A stretch of DNA of 64,000 bases, taken from positions 118,978,001 through 119,042,000 of the forward strand of contig NW_027362765.1 of the NCBI RefSeq assembly GCF_046119375.1, given 5' to 3'. Source of the stretch: Phyllobates terribilis. Taxonomy: Eukaryota. The position numbers and the translations under genes were made by a program. A model generated the notes under the pieces. The model was not told where the DNA came from, ran no database searches, and saw nothing but the letters and a program-made list of their open reading frames with translations. This document shows positions 3,281 through 63,313 of the stretch, piece by piece; within the stretch, counting starts at the first letter, position 1, and each line of letters starts with the position of its first letter.

Positions 3281-3394
3281 GGACTCTGTGGTGCCTGCGG
3301 GCCACATCTGCAGGAAGGCCGCCGAGGGAACGGAGGACAGGTGAGAATCATCTTTTTTTTTTTCTATTTTATGTGTGTGAAGAACAGCACAGAG

Positions 3395-4460
3395 GGCACA
3401 GAGCCACAACATGGGGACCGGGATGGTGCACAGAGCCACAAGAGGGGACCTGGATGGGGCACATAGCCACAGGATGGGGACCTGGATGGGGCACATAGCC
3501 ACAAGAGGGGACCTGGATGGGGCACAGAGCCACAACATGGGGACCGGGATGGGGCACATAGCCACAAGAGGGGACCTGGATGGGGCACATAGCCACAAGA
3601 GGGGACCTGGATGGGGCACAGAGCCTCAAGATGTGGACCTGGATGGGGCACATAGCCTCAAGATGTGGACCTGGATGGGGCACATAGCCTCAAGATGTGG
3701 ACCTGGATGGGGCACAGAGCCACAAGATGGGGACCAGAGCCACAAGATAGGGACCTGGATGGGGAACATTGCCACAGGATGGGGACCTGGATGGGGCACA
3801 TAGCCCCAAGATGGGGACCTGGATGAGGCACATTAGTACAAGATGGGCGCCAGGATGGGGAACGTTGCCACAGGATGGGGACCTGGATGGGGCACATAGC
3901 CTCAAGATGTGGACCTGGATGGGGCACATAGCCTCAAGATGTGGACCTGGATGGGGCACAGAGCCACAAGATGTGGACCTGGATGGGGCACATAGCCTCA
4001 AGATGTGGACCTGGATGGGGCACATAGCCTCAAGATGTGGACCTGGATGGGGCACATAGCCTCAAGATGTGGACCTGGATGGGGCACATAGCCTCAAGAT
4101 GTGGACCTGGATGGGGCACAGAGCCACAAGATGGGGACCAGAGCCACAAGATGGGGACCTGGATGGGGAACATTGCCACAGGATGGGGACCTGGATGGGG
4201 CACATAGCCCCAAGATGGGGACCTGGATGAGGCACATTAGTACAAGATGGGCGCCAGGATGGGGATTGTTGCCACAGGATGGGGACCTGTATGGGGCACA
4301 TAGCCACAGGATGGGGACCTGGATGGGGCACATAGCCACAGGATGGGGACCTGGATGGGGCACATAGCCACAGGATGGGGACCTGGATGGGGCACATAGC
4401 CACAGGATGGGGACCTGGATGGGGCACATTAGTACAAGATGGGGACTTGGATGGGGAACA
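3395..4460. repeat. 32-bp minisatellite inside the hAT element
   Basis: Unit GGACCTGGATGGGGCACATAGCC(T/A)CAAGATG(T/G); period 32 (e.g. 3901/3933). Confidence 0.95.
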
Positions 4461-7400: not shown

Positions 7401-8638
7401 GTGTGGTATAACGTTGTGAAGAGAGCATGACAACTGTACATAGGAGAAGAGAGGAGAGAGGGGTTAATATGGATGAAGTGTGCAGAATTTGTGGGAGAAC
7501 GGTGAATGTGGATGATTGTAGCAGCCAGAATATAAATTGCACAGATACAAATGGTGAATACTGTTTGCCCAAAAGATGACATGGAAGCAAGTTTGTTTAA
7601 TTGTCTTGCATGTCTTACCTGTCTCCTGCCCTGTCCAACTGCCATCTTCTAACTGCCGGGGCACTTTGATAAATTATGGCACTTCGATAAAGTATGCTTA
7701 AATGCTATATGCATAAATGCCTCCGCATAAAATAGGAGCTCCAGGGCAGTGGTGGTGAGTGCAGGTTGGGCAGCGGCAGTGATAGAAACTCCAGGGCAGC
7801 GTTGGTGAGTACAGATCAGCAGCCTGATATTGTACTGCTAATACCAGGCTACCGACCTGTTCTCACCACTGAAGAAAGTTACTGCAGCTGAAGAAAGTTC
7901 TCACGGCTCAGAGCAGCCCTGCAGTGGTAACTTCTTCCATCGGTGAGAACAGAGCGGTAGCCTGGGCTTAGCAGTACAATGTCAGGCTGCCGACTTGTAT
8001 TCACCTACGCTGCCCTGGAGCTCCTATCACCGCCGCTGCCCGACATGCGCTCACCACCGCTTCCTTGGAGCTACTGTCACCGTCGATGCCAAACCTAACT
8101 CACTGCTGGAGAAAGTTACTGCTGCAGCCCTGCGGTCGTAACTTCTAGCAGTGAGAACAGGTCGGTAGCACGGGATTAGCAGTACAATGTCAGGCTGCCG
8201 ACTTATATTCACTACCGCTGCCCTGAAGCTCCTGTCACCTCCGCTGCCCGTCCTGTACTCGTAGGCTCTGCACCATCGCCCCTCCTGTCACTGCAGAATA
8301 CTATGAGCGGTGATAGGGGGAATTGTAGTTCAGAGCACATCTCTGGACTACAAGAAAATGGCGTCCAAATCCTCCCACAGCTGTGACCTGGACAGCTCAG
8401 GGGGTGTGCCCACTGACCTCCGTCTCCTATGCCCATGGGCTGCCGTATTTGAGGTGTGTAGGTGTTGTGCTCAGACACTTACACATCAGCAAATAAACAT
8501 GTCAGCCCCCAGCAGCTGCAGAAGAAAATTAATAAGTAAATACATGTTAAAAAACACAACATGCCATTTTGTATTAGAGATAATTGTATAATCAATAATT
8601 ATTACTACAATAAAAAAAATTGCAACACATTCCCTTTA

Positions 8639-16295: not shown

Positions 16296-17902
16296 CCAAA
16301 GGGGAATCAGGCTAGTGCAGACCATATAGGGAATGATGGGGCAGAATCGGATGCCATTCCCTAGATATCTGCAGGAAACTACCTGAGATGCCCCTTGTGA
16401 CAGACCATCAGCAACTCATCATCAATGGGAGAGGACGCTCCAATTTTACATCGACTTTATAGATAAACGTTCTTAATCCACTACTGTGGTCAAATCAAGT
16501 ACAACTGTTTGAGTCATTAGTGCTCCTTGTGTTCACTTTTTGAGCACTGGATATATACAGACTCATATTTCTTAGCACCTAATACCGGGATCAATTTTGT
16601 TCATTGCCCTAATCTTCATGGGTGTTTTACGGGTGCTTAATTACTACTTTATATATGTCCACTTGAACTGAGTTATTCGACACAGAGAGAGGTCACCAGC
16701 TTACCAACTGATCATTTACCCAACAATCTAATGATCACGTTTTGCCGTCCAACTGTCACATTGGGGGGGAACAATGCACTAATCATCTCCACTCATAACT
16801 AGTGTTGAGCGATACCTTCCGTTATCAGGAAATATCATATCGGATTGGATCGGGCCGATACCCAAAAAGTATCGGATATCGCCGATTCCGATACCGGAAA
16901 CCAATGCAAGTCAATGGGACACAAATATCGGAATGAAAATAAACCCTTTCTTTCCTTGTAGGTTAATTCTACATGAACTAAAACAACTAAGAATAATGTA
17001 GAATGACATGAAAAGCCGGCAATTCATCAGCGGCATTCACCGGTACCCGACAATTTACAACAGAAAGAATAGAGCTTCACACATAGATTAGATAGATAGA
17101 ACCATGTCAGTCACATATATATGAAGTACAGTGACAGTGGTGGTTACTGTACTTGTCATTTAGTGTAAAGGATTTATTTAAAAAAATATTAGTGTTTTCG
17201 TGCACCGTCTCTTTAAAAAAGCCGGCCGGCAATTCAGCATCTGTACCCGACAATTTAGAATAGAAAGAATAGAGAATCATACATAGATTAGATAGATAGA
17301 AACATGTCAGTCACATATATATGAAGTACAGTGACAGTGTTGATTACTGTACTTGTCATTTAGTGTTAAAATAAAGGATTTATTTAAAAAAAAATTGGCG
17401 TGGGGTTCCCCTTAATTTTAGGCTCTAGCGGAGGTTAAGCAGACAGCTGGGGCAAATGTTTGAAGCCTGGGAAGGGGGTAATACCCACGGAGCTTCCCAG
17501 GCTACTAATATCAGCCCCCAGCTGAATACCTAGCCTTTACTAGCTATTAAAATGGGGGAACCCCCCCAAAAAATAACGTGGGGTCCCCCCTAATTTAATA
17601 GCTAGCAAAGGCTAGGCAGACAGCTGGGGGCTGATTTTAATAGCCCAGGAAGGGAGCCATGAATATTGACCCCCTCCCAGGCTAGAAACACCAGCCGTCA
17701 GCCGCCCCAGAAATGGCGCATCCATAGGATGCGCCAATTCTGGCACTTAGCCTCGCTCTTCCCACTGCCCTGTAGCGGTGGCAGTGGGGTAATAGGGCTG
17801 GGGTTGATGTCAGCTTATAATGCCAGCTGACATCAAGCCCAGGTTAGTAATGGAGAGGCGTCTATAAGACACCCCCATTACTAACCCCATAGTCAAAGTT
17901 AA

Positions 17903-18690
17903 AAAAAAAAACACAAACACCCAGAATAAAGTCCTTTAATTGAAATAAAGACACAATTCTTTATTGTTCTAAATTAAACCATACTTACCATCACGCCCAT
18001 TCCAGCTGAAGCCAACGATCCCCTGCAATAAAAGAAAAATAATAAAGCAACATCATCCTTACCTTTCGATGGTTCCCAGGACAGCTCCAGCTCTGCTACA
18101 TCGAGATGACAGGCTGGACCGCAGCAGAACGCTGCCATCCAGCCTGTCATCCCGCAGACACTGAGAAGCGCAGGCATGCTTGCGCTCCTCAGTGTCTCTC
18201 TGTGACGTCATCCAGATGAGCCGAGTTCATGTCCAATGAACTCAGCTCACCTCATGCACGTCACTGACAGCGTGGGAAAATTCTCACGCTGAAGTGCTGA
18301 GTGCAGGAGAATTTTCCCACGCTGTCAGTGACGTGCATGAGGTGAGCTGAGTTCATTGGACATGACCTCGGCTCATCTGGATACCGTCACAGCGAGACAC
18401 TGAGGAGCACAAGCATGCCTGCGCTTCTCAGTGTCTGCGGGATGACAGGCTGGATGGCAGCGTTCTCCTGCGGTCCAGCCTGTCATCTCGATGTAGCAGA
18501 GCTGAAGCTGTCGTGGGAACCATGGAAAGGTAAGGATGAGGTTGCTTTATTATTTTACTTTTATTGCAGGAGATCGTTGGCTTCAGCTGGAATGGGCATG
18601 ATGGTAAGTATGGTTTAATTTAGAACAATAAAGAATTGTGTGTTTATTTCAATTAATGGACTTTATTCTGGGTGTTGTGTTTTTTTAAAT
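17903..18690. repeat. Palindrome P1 (~380-bp arms, ~20-bp loop)
   Basis: Mirror ORFs 17974-18177(-) and 18415-18618(+) translate almost identically; centre CAGCGTGGGAAAATTCTC...GAGAATTTTCCCACGCTG. Confidence 0.92.
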
Positions 18691-19339
18691 ACTTTAATAG
18701 AAATTCATGGTGGTCATGTCTAATATTGGCGTGACCCCATGAATTTCGGGCTTAGGGCCAGCTGATAATGCCAAGCTGGCCTTAACCCCTTTATTACCCA
18801 GTGAGCCACCGCACCAGGGCCCTGGATGAGTTGGGTACAGCGCCAGAAGATGGCGCTTCTATGAACGCGCCATTTTCTGGGGCGGCTGCGGACTGCAATT
18901 TGCAGCGGGGGTGGCCCAGAAAGCTTGGGTCTCCCTGCGCTGCGGATTCCAGCCCCCAGCTGCCTAGTTGTACCTGGCTGGACACAAAAATAGGGCGAAG
19001 CCCCCCGCATTTTTTTTTTTAATTATTTCATGAAATTCATGGAATAATTAAGAAAAAAAGGGCTTCCCTATATTGTTGTGTCCAACCAGGTACAAAGAGG
19101 CAGCTGGTGGTTGGGGGCAGCCCATTCCTGCCTGCTGTACCTGGCTGGACACAAATATAGTGCGAAGCCCCACGTCAATTTTTTTTTAATTATTTCATGA
19201 AATAATTTTTTTAAAAAAGGGCTTCCCTATATTGTTGTGTCCGGCCAGGTACAAATAGGCAGCTGGTGGTTGGGGGCAGCCTGTTCCTGCCTGCTGTACC
19301 TGGCTGGACACAAATATAGGGCGAAGCCCCACATCAATT

Positions 19340-22300
19340 TTTTTTAAAATAAATCCTTTATTTTAACACTAAATGACATTTGAGGAGTTAATAAAGATGC
19401 AGTCCCTAAATTATTATTTATTTTTTAATTAATTTTTCCCAAAACTTTTGACGTGGGCTTCGCCATATTTTTGTATGCCAGCCAGGTACAGCATCCAGCT
19501 TCTATGAACGCGTCATTTTCCGGGGTGGCTGCGGACTGCAATTTTCAGCGGGGGGGGGGGGCAGAAAGCTTGGGCCTCCCTGCGCTGCAGATTCCATCCC
19601 CCAGCTGCCTAGTTGTACCTGGCTGGACACAAAAATAGAGAGAAGCTTCACGTATTTTTTTTTTTTAATTATTTCATGAAATTCATGAAATAATTAAGAA
19701 AAAAAGGGCTTCCCTATATTGTTGTGTCCAACCAGGTACAAATAGGCAGCTGGTGGTTGGGGGCAGCCCGTTCCTGCCTGCTGCACCTGACTGGACACAA
19801 ATATAGTGCGAAGCCCCACGTCAATTTTTTTTAAATCATTTCAGGAAATTCATGAATTTAAAAAAAAAATACGTGGAGCTTCGCCCTATTTTTGTGTCCA
19901 GCCAGGTACAGCAGGCAGGAACAGGCTGCCCCCAACCACCAGCTGCCTATTTGTACCTGGCCGGACACAACAATATAGGGAAGCCCTTTTTTAAAAAAAT
20001 TATTTCATGAAATAATTAAAAAAAAATTGACGTGGGGCTTCGCTCTGTTTTTGTGTCCAGCCAGGTACAACTAGGCAGCTGGGGGCTGGAATCTGCAGCG
20101 CAGGGAGGCCCAAGCTTTCTGGGCCCCACCCGCTGCAAATTGCAGTCCGCAGCCGCCCCGGAAAATGGCGCGTTCATAGAAGCGCCATCTTCTGGCGCTG
20201 TACCCAACTCATCCAGGGCCCTGGTGCGGTGGCTCACTGGGTAATAAAGGGGTTAAGGCCAGCTTGGCATTATCAGCTGGCCCTAAGCCCGAAATTCATG
20301 GGGTCACACCAATATTAGACATGACCACCATGAATTTCTAGTAAAGTATTTAAAAAAAACACAAACACCCAGAAAAAAGTCCTTTAATTGAAATAAACAC
20401 ACAATTCTTTATTGTTCTAAATTAAACCATACTTACAGTCACGCCCATTCCAGCTGAAGCCAACGATCTCCTTCAATAAAAGAAAAATAATAAAGCAACC
20501 TCATCCTTACCTTTCCATGGCTCCCGCGACGGCTCCAGCTCTGCTACATCGAGATGACAGGCTGGACCGCAGCAGAACGCTGCCATCCAGCCTGTCATCC
20601 CGCAGACACTGAGAAGCGCAGGCATGCTTGCGCTCCTCAGTGTCTCTCTGTGACGGCATAAAGATGAGCCGAGGTCATGTCCAATGAACTCAGCTCACCT
20701 CATGCACGTCACTGACAGCGTGGGAAAATTCTCCTGCACTCAGCGCTTCAGCGTGAGACTTCTCCCACGCTGTCAGTGACATACATGAGGTGAGGTCATG
20801 TCCAATGAACTCGGCGCACCTCATGCACGTCACTGACAGCGTGGGAAAATTCTCACGCTGAAGCGCTGAGTGCAGGAGAATTTTCCCACGCTGTCAGTGA
20901 CGTGCATGAGGTGAGCCGAGTTCATTGGACATGACCTTCGCTCATCTGGATGCCGTCACAGCCAGACACTGAGGAGCGCAAGCATGCCTGCGCTTCTCAG
21001 TGTCTGCGGGATGACAGGCTGGATGGCAGCGTTCTGCTACGGTCCAGCCTGTCATCTCGATGTAGCAGAGCTGAAGCTGTCGTGGGAACCATGGAAAAGT
21101 AAGGATGAGGTTGGTTTATTATTTTACTTTTATTGCAGGAGATCGTTGGCTTCAGCTGGAATGGGCGTGACTGTAAGTATGGTTTAATTTAGAACAATAA
21201 AGAATTGTGTCTTTATTTCAATTAAAGGACTTTTTTCTGGGTGTTTGTGTTTTTTTTAAATACTTTACTAGAAATTCATGGCGGTCATGTCTAATATTGG
21301 CGTGACCCCATGAATTTCGGGCTTAGGGCCAGCTGATAATGCCAAGCTGGCCTTAACCCCTTTATTACCCAGTGAGCCACCGCACCAGGGCCCTGGATGA
21401 GTTGGGTACAGCGCCAGAAGATGGCGCTTCTATGAACGCGCCATTTTCCGGGGCGGCTGCGGACTGCAATTTGCAGCGGGTGGGGCCCAGAAAGCTTGGG
21501 CCTCCCTGCGCTGCAGATTCCAGCCCCCAGCTGCCTAGTTGTACCTGGCTGGACACAAAAATAGAGAGAAGCTTCACGTATTTTTTTTTTTTAATTATTT
21601 CATGAAATTCATGGAATAATTAAGAAAAAAAGGGCTTCCCTATATTGTTGTGTCCGGCTAGGTACAAATAGGCAGCTGGTGGTTGGGGGCAGCCCGTTCC
21701 TGCCTGCTGTACCTGACTGGACACAAATATAGGGCGAAGCCCCACGTCAATTTTTTTTTAACTATTTCATGAAATAATTTAAAAAAAAAAGGGCTTCCCT
21801 ATATTGTTGTGTCCGGCCAGGTACAAATAGGCAGCTGGTGGTTGGGGGCAGCCCGTTCCTGCCTGCTGTACCTGACTGGACACAAATATAGGGCGAAGCC
21901 CCACATAATTTTTTTTTAATTATTTCATGAATTTCCTGAAATAATTAAAAAAAAATTGACGTGGGGCTTCACACTATATTTGTGTCCAGCCAGGTACAGC
22001 AGGCAGGAACGGGCTGCCCCCAACCACCAGCTGCCTATTTGTACCTGGCCAGACACAACAATATAGGGAAGCCCTTTTTTTCTTAATTATTCCATGAATT
22101 TCATGAAATAATAAAAAAAAAAAAAACGTGGAGCTTCTCCCTATTTTTGTGTCCAGCCAGGTACAACTAGGCAGCTGGGGGATGGAATCTGCAGCGCAGG
22201 GAGGCCCAAGCTTTCTGCCCCCCCCCTCTGAAAATTGCAGTCCGCGGCCGCCCCGGAAAATGGCGCGTTCATAGAAGCTGGATGCTGTACCTGGCTGGCA

Positions 22301-22430
22301 TACAAAAATATGGCGAAGCCCACGTCAAAAGTTTTGGGAAAAATTAATTAAAAAATAAATAATAATTTAGGGACTGCATCTTTATTAACTCCTCAAATGT
22401 CATTTAGTGTTAAAATAAAGGATTTATTTA
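19340..22430. repeat. Palindrome P2 (~3.1 kb, ~1.45-kb arms)
   Basis: 19340-19830 inverted at 21940-22430; 20016-20244 inverted at 21365-21605 (mirror ORF pairs); centre near 20800. Confidence 0.88.
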
Positions 22431-22440
22431 AAAAAAAAAT

Positions 22441-22800
22441 GGCGTGGGATCCCCCATAATTTTAGTCTCTAGCGGAGGTTAAGCAGACGGCTGGGGCAGA
22501 TGTTTGAAGCCTGGGAAGGGGGTAAAACCCACGGAGCTTCCCAGACTACTAATATCAGCCCCCAGCTGAATACCTAGCCTTTACTAGCTATTAAAATGGG
22601 GGACCACCCCCCAAAAAAATGGCGTGGGATCCCCCATAATTTTAGTCTCTAGCGGAGGTTAAGCAGACGGCTGGGGCAGATGTTTGAAGCCTGGGAAGGG
22701 GGTAAAACCCACGGAGCTTCCCAGACTACTAATATCAGCCCCCAGCTGAATACCTAGCCTTTACTAGCTATTAAAATGGGGGACCCCCCCAAAAAAAATG
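22441..22800. repeat. Near-perfect 180-bp tandem duplication
   Basis: Sequence lines 22441/22621 and 22501/22681 are identical. Confidence 0.9.
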
Positions 22801-25122
22801 ACGTGGGGTCCCCCCTATTTTAATAGCTAGCAAAGGCTAGGCAGACAGCTGGGGGCTGATATTAATAGCTCAGGAAGGGTGCCATGAATATTGGCCCCCT
22901 CCCAGGCTAGAAACACCAGCCGTCAGCCGCCCCAGAAATGGCGCATCCATAGGATGCGCCAATTCTGGCACTTAGCCTCGCTCTTCCACGCTGCCCTGGT
23001 GCGGTGGCAGGGGGTAATAGTGGTGGGGTTCATGTCAGCGCCAGCTGCCATGAAGCCCAGGTTAGTAATGATGGCCGTCTATATGACACCCCCATTACTA
23101 ACCTACAAAGTGTTAAAAAGAAAAAACACACTACACCCAGAAAAAAATAATTTATTTGAAATAAAACACACCATTTTATTTAATTCTTAGTTTACTAAAA
23201 AAAAATAGTTACCTGTCCACGTTCCTGCGCTGATCTCCCATGCACAGCTGTCACATCTGGAGAAGGTGACAGCTGTGCATGGCTGCTGTAAGCTCACGCT
23301 GCCGGGAACACGTCCGCTCCCGGCAGCGGGAGCCACTGACTGAGGTCACCGGAGTGCATTCAGGCAGCGCAGCTCCGGAGACCTCCTTTACGGCAGTGCT
23401 GTACCGTGGGAATTTCTCACGATACAGCAGTGCCGTAAAGGAGCTAACCGGAGCAGCGCTGCCTGAACTCCGGTGAACCCTTACGGCCCCGTCATTCTAG
23501 CGGCGGCAGCGGTTCAGAGCGGTCACATTCTATGTGGCTGCTCTAAACTGGAGATCATCGTGGGACACTCGTGGACTACTACGGAGGGGTAAGGATAAGG
23601 TTGTGGTTTATTATTTTATATTTTATTACAGGAGATCGATGGCTTCGGGGAATTAGGTGTCTAGGTGAGTATAGGTGTAGTTTTTTATTTTTTACTTTAT
23701 TTTAGGTGGCGATCGGCGGGGACAGGTAATGTATGAACTAATTTCTTTTAGGTAACCACTGGCCACCAATGACATGTATCTAACATTTATTGGGGACACA
23801 GTAGGGCAATTTATATAGCAGGATCAGGCTGATGGGAACTACTGCTCCCATCGAGCTGATCCTGCTGGCACGAGTGGACGGGGGACAGACATAGGCCGAT
23901 GGGAGTAGTAGTGTCACATCGGCCTATGTCTGCCTGCACGCACACACACCCCGCACACACACCCCGCACACACACCCCGCACACACACCCCGCACACACA
24001 CTAATCATGACGGGTCTGGGAGGTGAGGCTGACCTGTGCGGCCGTGGGAAAGTTCATGTGAGTTCATGCAGTCAAGCATGAACTCACATGAACCCTCTGA
24101 GGGCACCGCGGCTACTTCAAATGAACAGCTGATCGGCATCACCTGATACCTCAGCTGTTCATTTGAAATAACCGGCGGGAAAGCGCAGCACAGAACGGGA
24201 AAGCCGGCGGTGAAGTCTTTTCACTGCCGGCTTCCCCGCCCGGGTCCTTCGCTCCTTGGTGCTGCGCTCCCCGCCCGGTCCTAATTTACGATTGGGATTG
24301 GAGGTGGCGAGGGGAGCGGAGGATCGGGGTGGGAGGCTGCGGGGAAGCAGTATGGGGCTGTGCGATTGTTTAAAAGCCAGCGGCTTTTTACCGCCCGCCG
24401 GCTTTTAAACAATCAGGAGAATTCTCCCACGCTGGGATGGCATTCTGATGACAGGCTGGATCTCAGTTGAGCGCTGCCACCCAGCTTGTCATCCTTCACA
24501 GACACTGCAGAGCGCAGGCATTATGGGAATTTCCGATTCCGGTATTCGATATTATAAAAGTATCGGAATTAAGTATCGGAATTCCGATACAGTGAATATC
24601 GGCCGATACCCGATATTTCAGTATCGGAATGCTCAACACTACTCATAACCAAAAATCATATGGCGATACCCATGCACTGTCCCTTCGTTCCTGCCTTTAA
24701 AGTATTAAGTGTTGTAATATTTTTCAACAGTATCTAGATTAAAAGTCATATTTTAACTGCTATTTAACTGCTACTGCTATCCCCTTTTCTATTGGGTATT
24801 ACTGTCTAGTGACAATCACTATTGCTGCACCCCCTATATTGCTGTATATTGTGCCCTGTTTATTACTGTATAATTTGCCCCTATATTACTATATATTGTA
24901 CCCCTTATATTACTGCATAGTGTTCCCCCTATATTACTGTATAATGTGCCCCTATATTACTACAAGTGCTTCTCACTAAATTAAAATATCATCTAAAAGT
25001 TAATTTATTTCAGTTCTTCAATAGAAAAAGTGAAACTCATATATTATATAGAGTCATTACAAACAGAGTGATCTATTTCAAGTGTTTATTTCCGTTAATG
25101 TTTATGATTATGGCTTACAGCT

Positions 25123-26287
25123 TGTAGCGTCGGTGTCTCTGCCTCCTGCTCGGCAGAGACGCCGATCACCTTACCGGCGCGGCCCCGGTCCGGCGTCTGC
25201 CTCTCCTCTGCCCGCCTCCCATGCTGCGCTCGCCCATTATGCACGCACCGCGCACAGATTCCCGGGCACTGTGCTTAGGGCACGCGCGTTCCCTACGTCT
25301 TAAAGTGGCCACGCGCGCTGTTCTAAGATGTCCCCAGCCAGTGGCCAGAGGACATCTGCTATTTAAGGCACCTCCCCCAAAATGGAGGTGTAAAGGACAT
25401 ATTGATATTCATGCTATAGCAACTCCATTTTGTCTGCTTGCTTCAAAATCATGTTATTATACTCTTTGCATAACATACATTCTTTCCTTCTTTCCTCTTG
25501 ATTCACATGCAACTTTCCCACACTAACCTTTTGTCTCAAGAACATTCTATGAGACACCCTGCTCCTGTTATCTAGCTAGTCTGAGCCGGGATGTATAACC
25601 TTGTAACTTTCCATCGTACACCGAACTAACGATAATATGACCATATGTGTATTTCCGTAATAATTGTACTAACATTAGTTCAAGCTTGTAGGATAGCTGT
25701 AGGAGATTGGCTATTGATATACTCAAAACAATATAAAATGCTAAGTAGAAATAAACGGGGTTAGAGATTCTCTGAATCCAACCATACAGAGCTTTGCCTC
25801 CGTCTGGTTTTCTGTTGGATTGCGCAATCAACCTTGAAACATAATAATTTGACACTCACTTGGTCAACCGTGAAGGGTCATTACTGCCCTCCCTCAACAG
25901 AGGTGCCTGTGCAAAGTTGTTGTTTGTGTGCTGAACAATCTCTCCAGCCCTTAGGTCCCAGTACTGCCTGCCAGCTTGTCTATCAGCCGAGCCCGCCAGT
26001 CAGCCTGCCAGCCGAGCCTGCCAGTCTACCAGCGCCGCCTGCCTGCCTACCAGCTGTACTCCTCTGCCGTGCCTGTCTGCTTCGGCTGTCAGTCCTGTGG
26101 GAGTCGCCTTCTCTTACACAAGGTTGGTCCCAGAGTGGCACCTGGACCCCCTTCCCGATCCCTCCTTGGTTCACGGAGTTGACTAAGCTGCCGTGTAGCC
26201 AGGGTCGGTCCGGGTAGGCTCTTAGTTACGCCCCTCTGGTCCTTCCTTGTACCACGGCACAGTGGTTCCACCATCGGATCCGTAACA
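25123..26287 (+). mobile_element. Solo LTR (Gypsy-like)
   Basis: TGTAGCG...CGTAACA termini; 5-bp TSD CAGCT/CAGCC; the intact right TIR shows the pre-insertion site TTACAGCCAATG. Confidence 0.8.
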
Positions 26288-26408
26288 CAGCCAATGAAAA
26301 CACAAAAGTCATTACCTCAGTAAATTAGAATAATTAACAAAAAACACCTGCAAAGGCTTCCGAAGCATTAAAAAGGTCCCATAGTCTGTTTCGGTAGGCT
26401 CCACAATC

Positions 26409-27410
26409 ATGGGGAAGACTGCTGAGTTGACAGATGTACAGAAGGCAGTCATTGACACACTCCACAAGGAGGGTAAGCCAAAAAAGGTCATGCTAAAGAA
26501 GCTGGCTGTTCTCAGAGTGCTGTATCCAAGCATATTAATGGGAAGTTGAGTGGAAGGAAAAAGTGTGGTAGAAAAAAGTGCACAAGCAACCGGGATAACC
26601 ACAGCCTTGAAAGGATTGTTAAGAAAAGACCATTCAAAAATTTGGGGGAAATTCACAAGGAGTGGACTGCTGCTGGGGTCATTGCTTCAAGAGCCACCCC
26701 ACACAGACGTATCCAGGACATGGGCTACAAGTGTCACATTCCTTGTGTCGAGCCACTCATGACCAATACACAACGCCAGAAGCGTCTTACCTGGGCCAAG
26801 GAGAAAAAGACCTGGACTCTTGCTCAGTGGTCCAAGGTGTTGTTTTCAGATGAAAGTAAATTTTGCATTTCTTTCGGAAATCAAGGTCCCAGAGTCTGGA
26901 GGAAGAGTGGAGAGGCCACAATCCAAGCTGCTTGAGGTCTCGTGTGGAGTTTCCACAATCAGTGATGGTTTGGGGAGCCATGTCATCTGCTGGTGTAGGT
27001 CCACTGAGTTTTATCAAGACCAAAGTCAGCGCAGCCGTCTACCAGGACATTTTAGAGCACTTCATGCTTCCCTCTGCCGACAAGCTTTTTGGAGATGGAA
27101 ATGTCATTCTCCAGCAGGACTTGGCCCCTGTCCACACTGGCAAAAGTACCAATACCTGGTTTACAAACAACAGTATCACTGTGCTCGATTGGCCAGCAAC
27201 TCGCCTGACCTTAACCCCATAGAGAATCTATGGGGTATTGTCAAGAGGAAGATGAGAGACACCAGACCCAACAATGCAGACGAGCTGAAGGCTGCTATCA
27301 AAGCAACCTGGGCTTCCATAACACCTCAGCAGTGCCACAGGCTGATCGCCTCCATGCCACGCTGCATTGATGCAGTACTTGATGCAAAAAGAGCCCCGAC
27401 CAAGTATTGA
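26409..27410 (+). pseudogene. Tc1 transposase with several frameshifts
   Basis: MGKTAELTDVQK..., [30 protein letters not shown]...KY spread over three frames. Confidence 0.9.
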
Positions 27411-27689
27411 GTGCAATTACTGAACATACATTTCAGTAGGCCAACATTTCAGATTTTAAAATCATTTTTCAAGCTGTTGTTATAAAGTATTCTAATTTAC
27501 TGGGATAATGGCTTTTGTGTTTTCATTGGCTGTAAGCCATAATCATCAACATTAACAGAAATAAACACTTGAAATACATCACTCTGTTTGTAATGACTCT
27601 ATATAATATAGGAGTTTCACTTTTTGGATTGAAGAACTGAAATAAATTTACTTTTTGATGATATTCTAATTTAGTGAGAAGCACTTGTA

Positions 27690-39651: not shown

Positions 39652-41745
39652 TGACTTATGTACTTATCCGTCTGCTGGGCATGATGAGCCCTGCAGTTCT
39701 CTTTTAGCATTTAAGTTGGAATTTCCCCCAGAAGAACCTGACTCTGTGAATGTGCTGCGCATTCAGATATGGGCGATGGCAGCGGTAGACGGGCGCTGAT
39801 CTCTTACATAACTGACCTTTTATTGTCTGGGAATCAATAATTTACTGCAGTCAGTTGGAGGTGCTGCCATGGAGGTGGCGGTGAGAGGAGCGAGGCTCTC
39901 TCTTCTCAGGAAGTCCTGCGTCGCACGCTGACCCCTCCTCACTGTGACCTATTTGTTCTCCATGGGTCGTCTCTTGGTTGTGATATTTTGTTACTTGTAT
40001 ATATGTGGAATTAATAAACGATGGATGAAAGATTGATCACTGACTTACAATATATGGCCAACAGTATGTGACCTCTAACATCACTGTATGGGCTTAAATT
40101 ATGAAGACTAGCGTCAACAGATTATTGTTCCTCCACCTCTGGACTCTATAGTTGGCCTCACACATTGGGGTAGTAGGTGTCCTTCAGACATTTCCCAAAA
40201 TCAGATTCCTCCACCAGACTATTACATGGTGAAATTTAATTCATGACCCCAGTGAATGTATTACACTTTCCAAAGACCATTTGTGGTGGCTTTACATTTT
40301 CCCAGCTGATACCTGGCATTGAGCACTCAAGCCTTTGTTCAAATGCTCTGACGAAGAAACCCCAATCTATAAAGCTCTCGATGAACAGTCCTTGCGCTGG
40401 CATTTCTTCCAGATGTTCAGGACCCTACAGTAAATTCTGCAACTAAAGGCAGGCAATATTTAGGCTACATTCACACATCCAAGTGACGTGTCCTAGTGCT
40501 GTTGTTTTTTTTCTCGGACACCACATGGATCCATTGAGTTCCATTGATCCAAACACACAGTTGTTTTAAAAAAAGGTCTGTGTCTGTGAGGGGTTGTCCA
40601 CTTATTAGACAAGTCCTTTTTAAATAAAGTTGACCCCCTTAAAAAATAAAAATAAAAGATTCTCACTTACCGTACCGTTGCTGTTGCAGCTATGGCGGCC
40701 TGGTCTCTCGAGACTCACTTGACAGTGCTATGCCACGTGAGCTCTTCAGCCAATCAACAGCCGCTGTTGCGCTCTGACTACTTCTCCGCTGTTGCGCTCT
40801 CACTACTTCTGTTTGTCCGATGTTCGGACAAAGGAAGGGAACGCTCAGCAGCCTAATACCAGACGATGATTGTCTACAGGGCTCGCGTGAGACCCGGGAG
40901 ACTCGGTGCCGGTACGGGAGGTGAGTATCTCTTATTATTTAATTTTAATTTGCACTGCAGTTTTGCATCCAAGTTTCATCCATTTTTAACTCGTACTTTG
41001 CTAAGAGTCAATGGATAAAAAAGTTCAGGCAGCATAACTGCTTCAGTGAAAATGAAGGGATGAGGAAAAAAAGGATGCAAATAGGATGACAACTGAAAAA
41101 AAAGAATTACATTTCTCTTGGATGGTTGACATTGACACAGATGTGCGAATATAGGTTTGCTTTGTAAGCGATTGTCACATCCTCAATGATCATAAATTTG
41201 AGATATTCATTATAACCAATTTTAATGTTAATATATGAAGATTTTATGGTCCTATTCTAAATTTATTTACATATTCTCAATGCATGTAACCTAAATGGCT
41301 AACCATATTGGTTACAAGACAGGATCACATATTTTTGACAGTGGGTTTTAGAACTTTAAGATAAGCTTTTCTCTTAAAAAAATGCTACATTTCCCTGGCA
41401 CTGAGCACCTGCAGGGTGGTTGGGGCCATATGTTTGATTGGAACCATCTGCATAGAACTTGTATGTTCTCCACGTGTTCACATATTCTTACTCCTACAGT
41501 CTGAAAGCTGCCTGATTACCCAGAAATGGGAAAGAGAGAGAGCGATGGCTAGTAGAGTAAGTCACTTCTCACTTTCAGGGTTCTTGAAAAGTTTATTGGC
41601 GACTTCTTGGTTGTCATCCATCCTTCCCAAAAGTTTGTTGGCTTACATTTGTATTATGGACAATGGTGGTGTTCCTCTATATTTTGATGATTTCTTCTTT
41701 TCTCATTCCTTTCTGTTATTTCCCATTGTGTCTCTCTTTTCTCAG

Positions 41746-42698
41746 GTCTTTCTGCCACTGCTTCTCTCCTTTCTCTTGCTTGGATGATTGCCTCTTACCA
41801 AAAGGTCCTAAGAGATTCCCGGGACGATAAGATGCCCATGTCCTACAAAGGGGCTGTAGTGCAAATACTATGGCATCTCTTCACCATTGCTGCCCGAGCC
41901 TTGGCCTTCTCCCTCTTTGCCTCTGTCTTCCACTTATACTTTGGTATCTTCATTGTCACTCACTGGTGTCTCATGACTTTTTGGATTATCCAAGGGGAGA
42001 CAGACTTCTGCATGTCTCGCTGGGAGGAGATCATCTACAACATGGTGCTGGGGATCATCTACATCTTCTGCTGGTTCAATGTTCGTGAGGGTCGGACTCG
42101 CTGTAGAATGAGCACCTACTACATCATTGTACTGTCTGAGAACGCAGTCCTCACCGCTCTGTGGTATTATTATCGGCCAGATTATATGCTCAGTGACTTC
42201 TACGCTCTACTTATTGTTTGTTCGGTGCTCTGCAGCTTTGCTCTTGGTGTCTTCTTCATGCTTATATACTACAGTCTTCTGCATCCCAATGGTCCAATGT
42301 TTGGCCCCTCAAGTAGTAGTTGTGTGTTCACAGAAGGTCCTGAGACTTCTAGGGTCCCTGAATTGGAAGGCGCAGAAAGCCTTCCTTGTACTCTACCACG
42401 GACTACAGAGCAAGAACGGGACATGGTGCCTGGTGACAGGGACAGTTGTGTTCCTGTGTTCCAAGTCCGTTCTAGTGTCCCACCAACCCCTGTGACACGT
42501 GTTCCCCGAGCGCAAGGGCCTGTCATACGTATCGATCTTCCACGAAAGAAATATCCTGCCTGGGATGCCCATTTTATTGACCGCCGCTTGCGGAAGACTA
42601 TTTTGGCCTTGGAATATACTTCCCCAGCAACACCCCGTGTCCAGTACCGAACTTTAGGGACCTCACAGGAAGTTATGGAGTATGAAACAACAGTGTGA
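41746..42698 (+). CDS. xkr7: XK-related protein 7, coding exon 3
   Basis: [14 protein letters not shown]...GETDFCMS...[22 protein letters not shown]...YETTV*; the spliced CDS is 1491 nt (496 aa). Confidence 0.97.
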
Positions 42699-54052: not shown

Positions 54053-54777
54053 TATATTACTAAAGGATCTGGAGCATATATTGGACCAACCTCCAGAACT
54101 GTTGCCCCCTGTAGGGAAAAACGGATTTTGGCCCTGATCCCTTATGCGAGATCTTCATCACTGCAGATCATCCGTCGTTGGCTATGTGAATAGCTACATC
54201 AGTCCTCCCAATGCTTTTAAAGAAAATAAGACAAACCAGACAACTAAGAATAATTTCTACATAGCAGCACAATGCAGAAATGACAATGTGCAGTTCTGAT
54301 GCTGTTTATTATGGAGGTGCCAAGAAGGAATGTGCTGAGGCGTTCAACCATATGGCTGCACATGGGGGGTCCAGGCCCCAGAGAGGAGCATATGGCTGAT
54401 ACCACATTGTATTCTGTGCTGTGAAGCTGCACTAAATATCCATAGGAAAACATATTTATGGAAGATTTAAAGGGGTTGAACAAGATTTAAAAAAACATGG
54501 TTACTTTCTTCCGGAAACAGTGCTCATTGGTCCACAAGTTGCGCCTGGTATTACAGCTTAGCTCCAAAGGGTAACGTTTCTCCTTACGGAGAGTGACATG
54601 CCAGGCTAAGGAGGCTTGTAGGTCGTGCAATGACCCACTGGGAAATAAAATACATACATTTTCTCTTCAGAGAGGAAGAGGACTTGAACTCTAGTGCCAC
54701 CTATTGGATGTCGCAATCCTAGAAGTCAATATAGATAGAGCCTTTAATGAGCCTTGCCATATGACTTAGGATAAAAG

Positions 54778-54856
54778 CCAAACCAGAATCTCAATTTACA
54801 GACACGTGTTTTGGGGTTTTGCCCCTCCTCAGTGCAAAGCATGAGATGTGATTTGG
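54778..54856 (-). ncRNA. Type I hammerhead motif, probably inactivated (GAAA changed to AAAA)
   Basis: Minus strand TTTGCA-CTGAGGA-GGGG CAAAA CCCC-AAAA-CACGTG-TC-TGTAAA; perfect palindromic stem III ACACGTGT. Confidence 0.75.
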
Positions 54857-55006
54857 TTGTATGAGAGGCCTCTTCAAAAACACAATTTCCATATTTAATT
54901 TCCCAGAGGAGCATTGCATGGCTTATAAGTTACCTTACACTGATATAGCACTCTCCATAAGGAGAAACATTAGCCCTTAGACCCCAGTCAGAGGTCGCTT
55001 ATACAG

Positions 55007-55085
55007 CCAAATCCGATCTCATGTTTTGCACTGAGGAGGGGGAAAACACCGAAATACGTGTCTGTAAATTGAGATTCTGGTTCGG
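55007..55085 (+). ncRNA. Type I hammerhead ribozyme motif
   Basis: TTTGCA-CTGAGGA(55031)-stem II with one mismatch-GAAA(55051)-TACGTG-TC(55062)-TGTAAA; extended stem I TCTCA/TGAGA. Confidence 0.78.
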
Positions 55086-55330
55086 CTTTTATCCTAAGTC
55101 ATGTGGCATGGCCTGTTAAAGGGTTCATATTGATTTCTAGGATTGCTACATCCAATAGGTGACACTATTATTCAAGTCCTCTTCCTCTCTGAAGAGGCAA
55201 TTAGCATATTTAATTTCCCAGATGGGCATTGCATAACCTATAAGTCTCCTTATACTGGCAAGTCAGGCATGTCACTTTCCACAAGTAGAAACATTAGCCC
55301 TTAGACCCCAGTCAGAGGCCTCTCATACAG

Positions 55331-55410
55331 CCAAATCAGATCTCTATGCTTTGCACTGAGGAGGGGCAAAACCTCGAAATATGTGTCTGTAAATTGAGAT
55401 TCTGGTTTGG
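55331..55410 (+). ncRNA. Type I hammerhead ribozyme motif (most intact core and stem II)
   Basis: TTTGCA-CTGAGGA(55356)-GGGG CAAAA CCTC-GAAA(55376)-TATGTG-TC(55387)-TGTAAA; CCAAATCAGATCTC pairs with GAGATTCTGGTTTGG. Confidence 0.82.
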
Positions 55411-56087
55411 CTTTTATCCTAAGTCGTGACAAGGCTTGTGAAAGGGTTGCTATTGATTTCTAGGATTGCTACTTCCAATAGGTGGCACTATAGAGTTCAA
55501 GTTCTCTTCTAGGAAGAGTCAATTTGCACGCTTAGTTCCAGTGAAGTTAATGAGCTGTCACATATTACCTTGTGACTGGCGTGGCACTGTTTTTGGAAAG
55601 CAGATGTGATTTTTATTCTTGTACATCCCCATTTAACTTGCAAGTGCACAAGTACTGATCGATATTCACTTTCTATGAAGATGCGGCAGAGCCGAGCTTG
55701 TCGTTGATGCCATCATTTGGTGTCCAATGTATGATAAGACTACAAGTGAAGCTTCTACATTATCACAAGGAGTTACAAGCCCCTTTTCCTCTGCTGCATC
55801 ACATACTGTTGTGTGCTTCCACCTAGAAGCAGTCCAAGGAATTGCATTACACTTTTCATGTCTATATCTGCCCTTATCACATTGGACAGAAGTAGGAACT
55901 AGACTCTCTCCCTCAATCTGGTGGAGTTTCCTCTGTAGGAAAATAACAATGGAAAGGAAGAGGAGGCAGAGCCAGTTCTACAGAGACCAGGGAGCTGGGA
56001 GGGCAGGAATACGCATGAAGTCTGGTAGGACGCAGACATACCCTGGAAGTTTGTGGTAACTGGTGAAGTCATCTGAAAGACAGCAAA

Positions 56088-56988: not shown

Positions 56989-58597
56989 TAACTACTATAA
57001 TACTGCCCCTATGTACAAGAATATAGCTACTATAATACTGCCCCCTATGTACAGGAATATAACTACTATAATACTGCCCCTATGTACAAGAATATAACTA
57101 CTATAATACTGCCCCTATGTACAAGAATATAATTACTATAATATTGCCTCCTATGTACAAGAATTACCTACTATAATACTACTCCTATGTACTAGATTTA
57201 ACTACTATAATACTACCACCTATGTACAAGAATATGACTACGATAATACTGCACCTTCTGTACAAGAATATAACTACTATAATACTGCCTCTATGTACAA
57301 GAATATAATTACTATAATATTGCCTCCTATGTACAAGAATATACCTACTATAATACTACCCCTATGTACTAGATTTAACTACTATAATACTACCCCCTAT
57401 GTACAAGAATATAACTACTATAATACTGCTCCCTATGTACAAGAATAGAACTATAATGCTGCCCCTATGTACAAGAATGTACAAGAATAGACCTACTATA
57501 ATACTGCATCCTATGTACAAGAATATACCTACTCTAATACTATTCCTATATACAAGAATATACCTATTATAATACTGCTCCTATGTACAAGAATATTACT
57601 ACTATAATACTGTCCCCTATGTACAAGAATAGAACTACTATAATACTGCCCCCTATGTACAAGAATAGAACTACTATAATAGTGCCCCTATGTACAAGAA
57701 TATAACTACTATAGTACTGCTCCCTAGGTACAAGAATATACCTACTATAATACTTCTCCTATGTACAAGAATAGAACTACTATAATACTGCCCCTATGTA
57801 CAAGAATATAACTACTATAATACTGCTCCCTATGTACAAGAATAGAACTACTATAATGCTGCCCCTATGTACAAGAATAGATCTACTATAATACTGCCCC
57901 CTATGTACAAGAATAGAACTATAATAGTGCCCCTATGTACAAGAATATAACTACTATAGTACTGCTCCCTATGTACAAGAACAGAACTACTATAGTACTG
58001 CTCCTTATGTACAAGAATAGAACTACTATAATACTGCTCCCTATGTACAAGAATAGAACTACTATAATACTGCCCCTATGTACAAGAATGTACAAGGATA
58101 GAACTACTATAATACTGCATCCTATGTACAAGAATATATCTACTATAATACTGCTCCTATGTACAAGAATATAACTACTATAATACTGCTCCCTATGTAC
58201 AAGAATAGAACTACTATCATCGTGCCCCTATGTACAAGAATATAGCTACTATAATACTGCTCCTATGTACAAGAATATAACTACTATAATACTGCCCCCT
58301 ATATACAAGAATATAACTACTATAATACTGCTCCTATGTACAAGAATATAACTGCTATAATACTGCTCCTATGTACAAGAATATAACTACTATAATACTG
58401 TCCCTATGTACAAGAATATAACTACTATAATACTGCATCCTATGTACAAGAATATAACTACTATAATACTGCTCCTTTGTACAAGAATATAACTACTATA
58501 ATACTGCTCCTATGTACAAGAATAGAACTACTATAATACTGCCCCCTATGTACAAGAATATAACTGCTATAATACTGCTCCTATGTACAAGAATATA

Positions 58598-60248
58598 CAG
58601 TTATATGAAAAAGTTTGGGCACCCCTATTAATCTTAAGCTTAATGTTTTATAAAAATTGGTGTTTTTGCAACAGCTATTTCAGTTTGATATATGTAATAA
58701 CTGTTGGACACAGTAATGTTTCTGCCTTGAAATGAGGTTTATTGTACTAACAGAAAATGTGCAATCTGCATTCAAACAAAATTTGACAGGTGCATAAGTA
58801 TGGGCACCTCACCAGAAAAGTGACATTAATATTTAGTAGATCCTCCTTTTACAAAAATAAAAGCCTCTAGTCGCTTCCTGTAGCTTTTAATGAGTTCCTG
58901 GATCCTGGATGAAGGAATTTTTGACCATTCCTCTTTACAAAACAATTCCAGTTCAGTTAAGTTTGATGGTCGCCGAGCATGGACAGCCCTCTTCAAATGA
59001 TCCCACAGATGTTCAATGATATTCAGGTCTGGGGACTGGGATGGCCATTCCAGAACATTGTAATTGTTCCTCTGCATGAATGCCTGAGTAGATTTGGAGC
59101 GGTGTTTTGGATCATTGTCTTGCTGAAAGATCCATCCCCTGCGTAACTTCAACTTTATCACTGATTCTTGAACATTATTGTCAAGAATCTGCTGATACTG
59201 AGTGGAATCCATGTGTCCCTCAACTTTAACAAGATTCCTGGTGCCAGCATTGGCCACACAGCCCCAAAGCATGATGGAACCTCCACCAAATTTTACTGTG
59301 GGTAGCAAGTGCTTTTCTTGGAATGCTGTGTTTTTTTTGCCGCCATGCATAACGCCTTTTTGTATGACCAAACAACTCAATCTTGGTTTCATCAGTCCAC
59401 AGGACCTTCTTCCAAAAAGAAATTGGCTTCTCCAAATGTGCTTTTGCATACCTCAGCCGACTCTGTTTGTGGCGTGCTTGCAGAAACGACTTCTTTCGCA
59501 TCACTCTCCCATACAGCTTCTCCTTGTGCAAAGTGCGTTGTATAGTTGACCAATGCACAGTGACACCATCTGCAGCAAGTTGATGCTGCAGCTCTCTGGA
59601 GGTGGTCTGAGGATTGTCCTTGACTGATCTCACCATTCTTCTTCTCTGCCTTTCTGATGTTTTTCTTGGCCTGCCACTTCTGGCCTTAACAAGAACTGTT
59701 CCTGTGTTCTTCCATTTCCTTACTATGTTCCTCACAGTGGAAACTGACAGGTTAAATCTCCAAGACAGCTTTTTGTATCCTTCCCCTGAACAACTATGTT
59801 GAATAATCTTTGTTTTCAGATCATTTGACAGTTGTTTTGAGGAGCCCATGATGCCACTCTTCAGAGGAGATTCAAACAGGAGAACAACTTGCAAGTGGCC
59901 ACTTTAAGTAGCTTTTCTCATGATTGCATACACCTGGCTATGAAGTTCAAAGCTCAATGAGGTCACAAAACCAAAAAAAGTGCTTTAGTAAGTCAGTAAA
60001 AAGTAGGTAGGAGTATTTAAAACAAGAAAATGATAAGAGTGCCCATACTTATGCACCTGTCAAATTTTGTTTGAATGCAGATTGCACATTTTCTGTTAGT
60101 ACAATAAACCTCATTTCAAGGCAGAAACATTACTGTGTCCAACAGTTATTACATATATCAAACTGAAATAGCTGTTGCAAAAACGCCAATTTTAAGAAAA
60201 CATTAAGCTTAAGATTAATAGGGGTGCCCAAACTTTTTCATATAACTG
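58598..60248 (-). mobile_element. Young full-length Tc1 transposon (1651 bp)
   Basis: TA|CAGTTATATGAAAAAGTTTGGGCACCCC; near-identical TIRs of ~210 bp; TA duplicated within a minisatellite unit. Confidence 0.96.
58826..59849 (-). pseudogene. DD34E Tc1 transposase, 340 aa after removing one base
   Basis: MGSSKQLSNDL...WTDE...QQDND(34 aa)E...KY*; span 1024 nt = 1023+1; the extra base is in the T8 run at 59331-59338. Confidence 0.92.
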
Positions 60249-60881
60249 TAACTACTATAATACTGCTCCTATGTACAAGAATATAACTACTATAATACTG
60301 CTCCTTTGTACAAGACTATAACTACTATAATACTGCATCCTATGTACAAGAATATAACTACTATAATACTGCTCCTTTGTACAAGAATATAACTACTATA
60401 CTACTGCTCCTATGTACAAGAATAGAACTACTATAATAATGTCCCTATGTACCAGAATAGAACTACTATAATACTGCCCCCTATGTACCAGAATAGAACT
60501 ACTATAATACTGCCCCCTATGTACAAGATTATAACTACTATAATACTGCTCCTATGTACAAGAATATAACTACTATAATACTGCTCCTATGTACAAGAAT
60601 ATAACTACTATAATACTGCTCCCTATGTACAAGAATATAACTACTATAATACTGCCCCCTATGTACAAGAATATAACTACTATAATACTGCTCCTATGTA
60701 CAAGAATATAACTACTATAATACTGCTCCTATGTACAAGAATATAACTACTATAATACTGCTCCTATGTACAAGAATGTACAAGGATAGAACTACTATAA
60801 TACTGCTCCTAAGGATATAACCAATTTCTGAATTATTTCATCCTGATCTTTGTTACTGTATATGTGGAATTTGAGGATTGA

Positions 60882-62115: not shown

Positions 62116-62547
62116 TGACACCCCTGCATGCACTATGCCTCAATTATGGCATGGTAGAAAGCCTTGGTTATTGACTTTGTACTTGTGTAGGAACCAAGAT
62201 TGCCAACTTGATTTTTTTTCTGGCCAATATTTTTCTGCCATTGGAGACCCCGGGCAAAATAATTAGGGAATAGTTCCAAAACATCAACCTAATAGCAGTA
62301 CAACAATGTGCCCAAACAGTACCACGTCCAAATAAAAGCATCCTAAATATATTGCCAAAATAATAGCATACCAAGCTCCAACTATTATGCCATGTTGTGC
62401 CCAAATATCTCCGTGACTTGTTCTAATACAAGTGTCCAAAAAAGAATACCTAAATAATACCACCATGATGCCTGTAGTGTCCAGACAGCAATGCCAAAAT
62501 AATAACTGCACACAATGGCCAAATAACAGTCATATTATACTGAAATA

Positions 62548-62901
62548 TAAGGGGAAACATTTCTAATTGTGGAGAGTGACAGTGTAAGGAGACTTATAGG
62601 CCATCCAATGGTCCTCTGCGAAATTAAATATGCAATAATGCCACATACTGGAAGTAGCAATCCTAAAAGTCAATGTCAACTCTTTAATGAGCATTGCCAC
62701 ATGACTTAGGATCTCATGCTTTGCACTGAGGAGGGGTGACAGATCGAAACACAGGTCTGCAAATTGAGATTCTGGTTTGGCTTTTATTCTAAGTCATGTG
62801 ACAAGGCTCGTTAAAGGGTCGATATTGACAATTTTTAGATTGCTATTTTCAGTAATTGGCACCAGAGTTCAAGTCCTCTTCCTCTCTAAAGAGGCAATTT
62901 G
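62548..62901 (+). mobile_element. Second, internally deleted insertion of the hammerhead-bearing element (ccm2l intron 6)
   Basis: Inverted part ~62548-62710 plus forward part 62711-62901; TSD CATATTATACTGAAATA (62531-62547) / CATATTATACTGAAGTA (62902-62918). Confidence 0.78.
62712..62769 (+). ncRNA. Type I hammerhead motif with degenerate stem II, sense to ccm2l
   Basis: TCTCATGC-TTTGCA-CTGAGGA(62726)-GGGGTGACAGATC-GAAA(62746)-CACAGG-TC(62757)-TGCAAA-TTGAGA. Confidence 0.7.
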
Positions 62902-63313
62902 CATATTATACTGAAGTACTACTGCCATATTGTGTCAAAATAATACTAGCTTAGGCTGGTTTCACACATCCGATGTGTCTCCTGACATGACATTGGAAGA
63001 GCAGGAGAACTGCAGCCGGTTTAGACATCGTAGTCGTTACTCGGGTCGTGAATGTTGGATGTGTGATATCGGCCCCACTGTTCCCAATAAAGTGTCATGT
63101 TGAGATTTGCAGCCATGCTGGGGTCCTGATGATGAGCACAGACTCTGCCATATGCCGTGTGCAGTAGAGTCCTGTCCCATTGACCTTAGCATTCCTACAT
63201 TCTCAAACCAGTTATGGTGGCTATAGGGTGTTTTTGATGGAAGAACCAGGACTCTCCTTCCATTTATAGCCTGGCTCTGGACATTGCTTGATTCTTTTCT
63301 CGTCTTTCTGCAG

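What the first reader, a model, noticed from the sequence alone, without database searches (positions are those of the whole stretch)
62531..62918. Second insertion of the ribozyme element with the same inverted-plus-forward layout and shared endpoints
Seen in sequence: both insertions have a left inverted segment ending at the same unit position (AAGGGTAACGTTTCT at 54567; AAGGGGAAACATTTCT at 62549). Both forward segments stop at GAG(G/T)CAATTTGCA. Each has its own long TSD (11 bp; up to 17 bp, of which CATATT also matches the element's 3' end). Established knowledge: long variable TSDs indicate target-primed retrotransposition, and Penelope-like elements often carry an inverted pseudo-LTR at the 5' end. 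Inference: the fixed ends point to a defined composite template or priming mechanism rather than random twin-priming, and imply an autonomous partner (probably a Penelope-like RT/GIY-YIG element) elsewhere in the genome.
Basis: partly seen in the sequence, partly recalled or inferred. Interest (0 to 1): 0.8.

Follow-up and report, generated by a model that had tools for sequence, protein, structure and literature searches.

The report
Ribozyme retroelement with Penelope-type insertion ends
This is one copy of an abundant small self-cleaving-RNA element of a known kind, and its mirror-image insertions almost always stop at one fixed point on one side and at a second fixed point on the other, a hint at how Penelope-like retrotransposons paste themselves and their parasites into DNA.

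Summary
62531-62918 and 54556-55540 are independent insertions of a 324-bp non-coding unit carrying a type I hammerhead (a non-LTR retrozyme), each with an inverted arm, a forward arm and its own target-site duplication (TSD; 17 and 11 bp). Among 173 sampled copies, all 75 inverted composites point their 3' ends outward. Arm ends cluster at two unit positions (S1 about 145, S2 about 244). Where both ends are at such a site, 38 of 40 composites pair S1 with S2, none S2 with S2; 24 of the 38 keep a TSD. The central junction is random, so there is no pre-built composite template. Five of seven tail-out pairs of endonuclease-bearing Penelope-like elements (PLEs) in this genome show the same short-plus-long ends with TSDs. 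No PLE sharing the unit was found in 100 regions examined. Inverted pseudo-LTR, one-sided 'tail' and TSD are published PLE traits, and retrozymes are already proposed PLE parasites. New are the insertion-level link and the one-site-per-end rule, which suggests two primings per insertion. This scan noted similar PLE-type ends twice in other genomes.

The parts
62531..62547 (.). Left TSD copy of insertion B (17 bp, 1 mismatch to the right copy)
62548..62709 (-). Inverted arm of B: unit about 29-241, 3' end at site S2 facing the left TSD; about 48 nt missing, mostly unit 108-141; no hammerhead
62710..62901 (+). Forward arm of B: unit 277 through the hammerhead to 142 (148 if the 6-nt overlap with the TSD is counted), 3' end at site S1; 3-nt overlap with the inverted arm at the junction
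62720..62763 (+). Type I hammerhead of B: core boxes present, helix II and the helix III loop altered; does not fold as a hammerhead, probably inactive (inference)
62902..62918 (.). Right TSD copy of B; first 6 bases equal unit 143-148 (microhomology)
54556..54566 (.). Left TSD copy of insertion A (11 bp, 1 mismatch)
54567..54873 (-). Inverted arm of A: nearly one full unit (252 round to 239-240), 3' end at S2, one hammerhead
54874..54882 (.). 9 bases at the central junction of A that align to neither arm
54883..55529 (+). Forward arm of A: two tandem units (136 round twice to 145), hammerhead cuts predicted after 55062 and 55387, 3' end at S1
55530..55540 (.). Right TSD copy of A

Best explanation
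A non-autonomous, hammerhead-bearing retroelement (non-LTR retrozyme) copied in trans by a Penelope-like RT/GIY-YIG protein. Inferred cycle: tandem units are transcribed, and the hammerheads may cut them into 324-nt monomers or circles. The PLE endonuclease makes a staggered cut (mostly 8-18 bp) in AT-rich DNA. Each 3'-OH primes reverse transcription inside the RNA, one at S1 and the other at S2, about 99 nt downstream, helped by 1-2 nt of pairing. The two antisense cDNAs stop at random points and are joined head to head, giving a tail-out inverted insertion with a TSD. If only one priming survives, a single arm ending at S1 or S2 results. Shown: anatomy, end clustering, S1+S2 pairing, TSDs, microhomology, same end rule in ORF-bearing PLEs of this genome. 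Inferred: transcription, cleavage, the mobilising protein, and that both ends are priming sites.
For: 75 of 75 inverted composites are tail-out and no '+-' pattern occurs among 173 elements. 38 are S1+S2, 2 S1+S1, 0 S2+S2, 31 have one end elsewhere, 4 both (p about 7e-10 for 38 of 40 against one half). TSDs were found in 24 of the 38, as expected if nearly all had one: a simulation at 9% decay recovers 141 of 260. Mean overlap between TSD and unit continuation is 1.9 nt at S1 (n=34) and 1.5 nt at S2 (n=29), against 1.0 and 0.5 in simulated insertions without pairing. The arms of one insertion share derived letters at 2.1% of sites, as do tandem units within an arm (2.1%), against 1.0% between insertions. 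Five of 7 tail-out PLE pairs from three families have one short and one long end with a 12-18-bp TSD. Literature: PLE insertion with inverted pLTR, 9-bp TSD and a tail on one pLTR, and pLTRs acting in trans (PMC3846280); two internal RT start sites, both strands cut and extended, predicted dimer (PMC11167929).
Against: No PLE with sequence similarity to the unit was found, so the helper is unidentified. 71 of 257 arm ends are at neither site; several are nested TTAA insertions or deletions, but not all were explained. Only 14 of 70 single arms ending at S1 or S2 have a detectable TSD. The anole enzyme started at sites without homology to the target and showed no strand difference in start site, and its tail is 30-40 nt, not 99. 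Expression and cleavage were not shown; only 95 of 182 hammerhead copies keep an intact core. Two of the 7 PLE pairs could not be scored because one arm was interrupted.
Confidence: 0.8

Rival explanations
1. One priming only; the second end is made by fold-back or second-strand synthesis and cut by the endonuclease at a fixed site (the 'tail by EN resolution' or self-priming idea).
For: [quoted passage not shown] It would explain one end at each site and the shared variants between arms.
Against: Junctions are not palindromic: 6 of 59 have both arms starting within 10 nt, against 4.4 expected (p 0.27). Both ends show excess TSD microhomology. Single arms with TSDs end at either site.
Confidence: 0.2
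2. Classical L1-type twin priming on one linear RNA: the downstream cDNA runs up to the upstream primer.
For: Tail-out geometry, TSDs of 8-18 bp and shared variants between arms fit twin priming in general.
Against: Arms do not abut: 8 of 32 composites have one arm starting near the other's end, against 4.7 expected. In 16 of 37 both arms run past the other site. There is no poly(A) end, and the inner priming site is fixed, not random.
Confidence: 0.06
3. A fixed composite RNA or DNA template (inverted plus forward) is copied as a unit.
For: The two window copies share both outer ends.
Against: No recurring central junction is apparent among the 59 listed; arm lengths run from 38 to 771 nt.
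Confidence: 0.02
4. The copies are 5'-truncated stumps of an autonomous PLE with tandem pseudo-LTRs, not a free retrozyme.
For: PLE insertions are mostly 5'-truncated (PMC8557442), and retrozyme units match PLE pLTRs in Xenopus (bioRxiv 10.64898/2026.07.22.740005).
Against: Arms run round the 324-nt unit up to three times with no exit into other shared sequence; flank clustering of 139 elements found only nested transposons; the one endonuclease hit in 158 element-bearing sequences surrounds the insertion as its target.
Confidence: 0.1

Closest known systems
Animal non-LTR retrozymes (Cervera and de la Pena 2020, PMC7229834; Li, Clavereau and Pollet 2026, bioRxiv 10.64898/2026.07.22.740005), including newt satellite 2 and axolotl Rtz331
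   Same: About 330-bp non-coding unit, short tandems, type I hammerhead with a one-pair helix III capped by a palindromic tetraloop, TSDs longer than 4 bp, very high copy number, co-occurrence with PLEs.
   Different: In the parts I read, neither paper describes inverted composites, fixed ends or tails for retrozymes ('inverted' 0 times in the first, once in a reference title in the second). Their PLE link rests on co-occurrence and pLTR similarity; here it rests on insertion anatomy, and no homologous pLTR was found.
Endonuclease-bearing PLE insertions with inverted pLTR and one-sided tail (Arkhipova et al. 2013, PMC3846280; Craig et al. 2021, PMC8557442)
   Same: Head-to-head inverted copy, tail at one end only, TSD of about 8-10 bp, cis-acting ends usable in trans.
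   Different: No ORF; tail 99 nt instead of 30-40 nt; junctions not palindromic; the pairing is here counted (38 of 40) instead of being called optional.
Poseidon PLE of Anolis in vitro (Frangieh et al. 2024, PMC11167929)
   Same: Two internal RT start sites downstream of the hammerhead that match genomic ends; AT-rich targets; both strands cut and extended.
   Different: Sites here are about 99 nt apart and each about 10 nt wide; slight microhomology is seen; pairing of the sites within single insertions was not reported in the main text that I read.
L1 twin priming (recalled; seen only in a search listing)
   Same: Inverted 5' part, forward 3' part, TSD.
   Different: Both ends fixed, arms overlap in template, no poly(A).

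Membership tests
Non-LTR retrozyme | Type I hammerhead in each unit | tested here: met
   Core boxes, helices I-III and cut triplet in the consensus; 182 copies, core letters 94% conserved, 95 intact. Rfam gives no hammerhead match; almost no compensatory changes.
Non-LTR retrozyme | Unit of 150-450 bp in tandem copies | tested here: met
   324-nt consensus; arms of up to three units. No long array among the sampled loci.
Non-LTR retrozyme | Non-coding; no LTR, PBS or PPT | tested here: met
   No ORF of 150 aa over either insertion; no RT or endonuclease joined to the unit; ends are inverted arms, not LTRs. PBS and PPT were judged by eye only.
Non-LTR retrozyme | TSD longer than 4 bp when present | tested here: met
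   41 TSDs, 40 of them 8-18 bp and one 21 bp.
Non-LTR retrozyme | Expressed as self-cleaved linear and circular RNA | not testable with these tools
   No RNA holder listed; only contigs could be laid.
Non-autonomous PLE derivative | PLE-type insertion: tail-out inverted copy, tail at one end, TSD | tested here: met
   same pattern in ORF-bearing PLEs.
Non-autonomous PLE derivative | Sequence similarity to the pLTR of an autonomous PLE | tested here: inconclusive
   None in 100 PLE 3' regions, all from three endonuclease-led searches with 4,370-40,201 first-look candidates each; no Poseidon-type query was run.
Autonomous PLE | ORF with RT and GIY-YIG endonuclease | tested here: not met

The most novel reading that the evidence does not exclude
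PLE integration is an asymmetric double priming: in each event the two ends of the staggered cut start reverse transcription at two different, fixed places of the same source RNA (one per strand, as by an unequal dimer), and this rule is general. It holds here for a ribozyme-only parasite (tail 99 nt) and for three ORF-bearing PLE families (tails of about 40-50, 90 and 325 nt). The 'optional tail' would then be an obligatory mark of one of the two primers, and insertion ends could assign retrozymes to PLE mobilisation without any sequence similarity.
Probability: 0.5. Interest if true: 0.68.

Novelty: new member of a known kind. Interest (0 to 1): 0.45.

Why it matters
How retrozymes move and how PLEs make their inverted, tailed insertions are both called unresolved in the papers read. 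This family gives a large natural record of the products. It links a retrozyme to PLE enzymes through insertion scars, and it yields a sharp prediction for the existing in vitro PLE system: on single target molecules the two strands should start at different sites. The element itself is old (about 90% identical to consensus) and ordinary.

Tried and rejected
Rfam at gathering score: nothing in the window. The MIR7533 match is far below its cut-off and reflects the inverted arms; rejected. The unit does not fold better than shuffles (z -0.05). Partner search: unit against 30+20+20+30+20 PLE loci found only nested retrozyme copies; the two highest z values rest on 8 shuffles and low scores and were not accepted. 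A third end cluster at unit 51-58 looked like an exit into an ORF but is due, in the cases read, to TTAA transposons inserted there. Palindromic junctions and abutting arms were tested and not found; junction overlap was only slightly above the null (25% against 18% at 3 nt or more). The first microhomology null was too lenient and was replaced by a simulation. No RNA holder listed; contigs laid show that a second organism holds the family but say nothing on expression. No solved PLE structure matched. The Rana repeat paper (PMC12054243, passages) is unrelated. An exact copy count was not obtained.

Full report
1. Observation. Both insertions are as described. Insertion B spans 62531-62918: a 17-bp TSD, an inverted arm (62548-62709), a forward arm (62710-62901) and the second TSD copy. 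Insertion A spans 54556-55540 with an 11-bp TSD. The flanks are unrelated. The window lies on contig C5 of a 10.6-Gb assembly; that it is an amphibian is my inference from recalled genome features and was not tested.

2. The unit. A consensus of 324 nt was built from the copies in 92 sequences and numbered from the hammerhead cut. It holds a type I hammerhead with a 6-bp helix I, a 4-bp helix II and a one-pair helix III capped by a palindromic tetraloop, the form described for amphibian retrozymes (PMC7229834, passages). Copies are about 90% identical to the consensus, so the family is old. Of 182 full hammerhead copies 95 keep the core; the one in B is damaged. Three independent copies turned up in at most 0.42 Mb of loci fetched for another reason, which with the two in the window suggests on the order of 100,000 copies (rough inference).

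3. Sample. Five DNA searches of the own genome each scored 40 of 812-6,350 first-look candidates. I analysed the loci returned or fetched; 11 loci that repeated the window or another locus were left out in scripts (8, 1 each), and the window's own hit was skipped. This left 173 elements with 257 arms. It is a sample of the best-scoring copies, not a census. Two queries lay just upstream of S1 or S2 and enrich those ends, but they cannot set the end of the partner arm. The hammerhead-centred query and one copy found by accident show the same pattern.

4. Ends. Arm 3' ends cluster at S1 (99 arms) and S2 (87 arms); 71 are elsewhere. In TSD-defined copies S1 is unit 139-153 (median 145) and S2 is 235-248 (median 244). 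All 75 simple inverted composites are tail-out. Of these 38 are S1+S2, 2 S1+S1, none S2+S2, 31 have one end elsewhere and 4 both. Some stray ends come from later TTAA transposon insertions. TSDs scored in 24 of 38 S1+S2 composites, 14 of 70 single arms at S1 or S2, and 1 of 300 mismatched flank pairs; a simulation at this age recovers 141 of 260. The 41 TSDs are 68% A+T against 60% in flanks.

5. Inside. The 59 central junctions examined are scattered; they are neither palindromic (6 of 59, 4.4 expected) nor abutting as in classical twin priming (8 of 32, 4.7 expected). In 16 of 37 composites both arms run past the other site. The arms of one insertion share derived letters twice as often as arms of different insertions (2.1% against 1.0%), like tandem units within an arm; this points to one source element per event, not necessarily one molecule. 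Both ends overlap the TSD more than a simulation without pairing gives (1.9 against 1.0 nt; 1.5 against 0.5 nt), which favours priming at both.

6. Autonomous PLEs. GIY-YIG searches found many PLE endonuclease copies; I call them Neptune-like from a recalled cysteine motif before the endonuclease, without a tree. Their 3' regions carry hammerhead-like motifs, and three families show two end positions. I examined seven tail-out pairs. Five have one short and one long end with a TSD: L119/L120 (14 bp, tail 89 nt), L182/L183 (up to 18 bp), L267/L268 (15 bp, tail 325 nt), L284/L285 (up to 16 bp, tail 40 nt) and L282/L283 (12 bp or more, read by eye). Two were interrupted and gave no TSD. None of 100 PLE 3' regions resembles the unit, so the helper is not identified.

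7. Mechanism. Best reading: a PLE protein cuts both strands, and each end primes at a different internal site of the retrozyme RNA; the two truncated cDNAs are then joined head to head (confidence 0.8 for PLE mobilisation with two defined ends, about 0.6 for priming at both). The main rival is one priming plus endonuclease resolution of the other end.

8. Known and new. Read: bioRxiv 10.64898/2026.07.22.740005, parts 1-3 of 5 and passages; PMC11167929, parts 1-2 of 4; PMC7229834, passages and Discussion; passages of PMC8557442, PMC4209133, PMC3846280 and PMC12054243. No supplements were read. The anatomy is published for PLEs, and retrozymes are already proposed to be their non-autonomous derivatives. 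Five searches listed no paper, by title and start of abstract, that reports inverted, two-ended insertions of retrozymes or counts the pairing of the two ends; older reviews on the PLE tail cited in these papers were not seen. Two unchecked notes of this scan describe PLE-type ends of small non-coding elements in other genomes; nothing was noted for this sequence or genome.

9. Verdict. Real, and a new member of a known kind. The one-site-per-end rule is the part worth following. Interest 0.45.

Noticed in passing
G000 contigs C12, C73, C190, C214, C315, C562, C592 and others: A PLE-endonuclease-like match in a 555-aa open frame recurs about every 140-150 kb on the same strand, which suggests a giant tandem repeat.
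   Followed up: no
L148:3892-4324 and L242:1500-2000: Retrozyme composites (S1+S2, TSD 12-13 bp) inserted inside or just upstream of PLE endonuclease coding sequence; the L148 and L223 copies look like a second subfamily with a changed hammerhead helix II.
   Followed up: partly
L008, L056, L099 at unit 54-57: Non-coding transposons with TTAA target sites and short terminal repeats have inserted at the same TTAA of the unit in three copies.
   Followed up: partly
L104, L110, L119, L127, L193, L268 3' ends: In several PLE families the long end lies shortly after a splice-donor-like motif (read by eye), so the tail may be the first exon plus the start of an intron.
   Followed up: no
window 16798-16962 (-): Fragment of a PLE RT, 84% identical at protein level to L133.
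   Followed up: no
window 41691-42698 (+): 335-aa frame that looks like the last exon of an XK-related gene (recalled, not searched); both insertions lie downstream of it.
   Followed up: no
window 4746-7648 (-): LINE with endonuclease-like and RT-like frames, L2/CR1 type by eye.
   Followed up: no
window 58596-60250; 24961-27689; 8679 to about 10900; 17895-22473: Two Tc1-like transposons with long terminal inverted repeats, a 35-bp minisatellite of 57 matched copies, and a block of nested long inverted repeats.
   Followed up: no
run X5: A second organism holds the same repeat family (1,506 contigs laid) but its contigs do not cover the outer flanks of insertion A.
   Followed up: no
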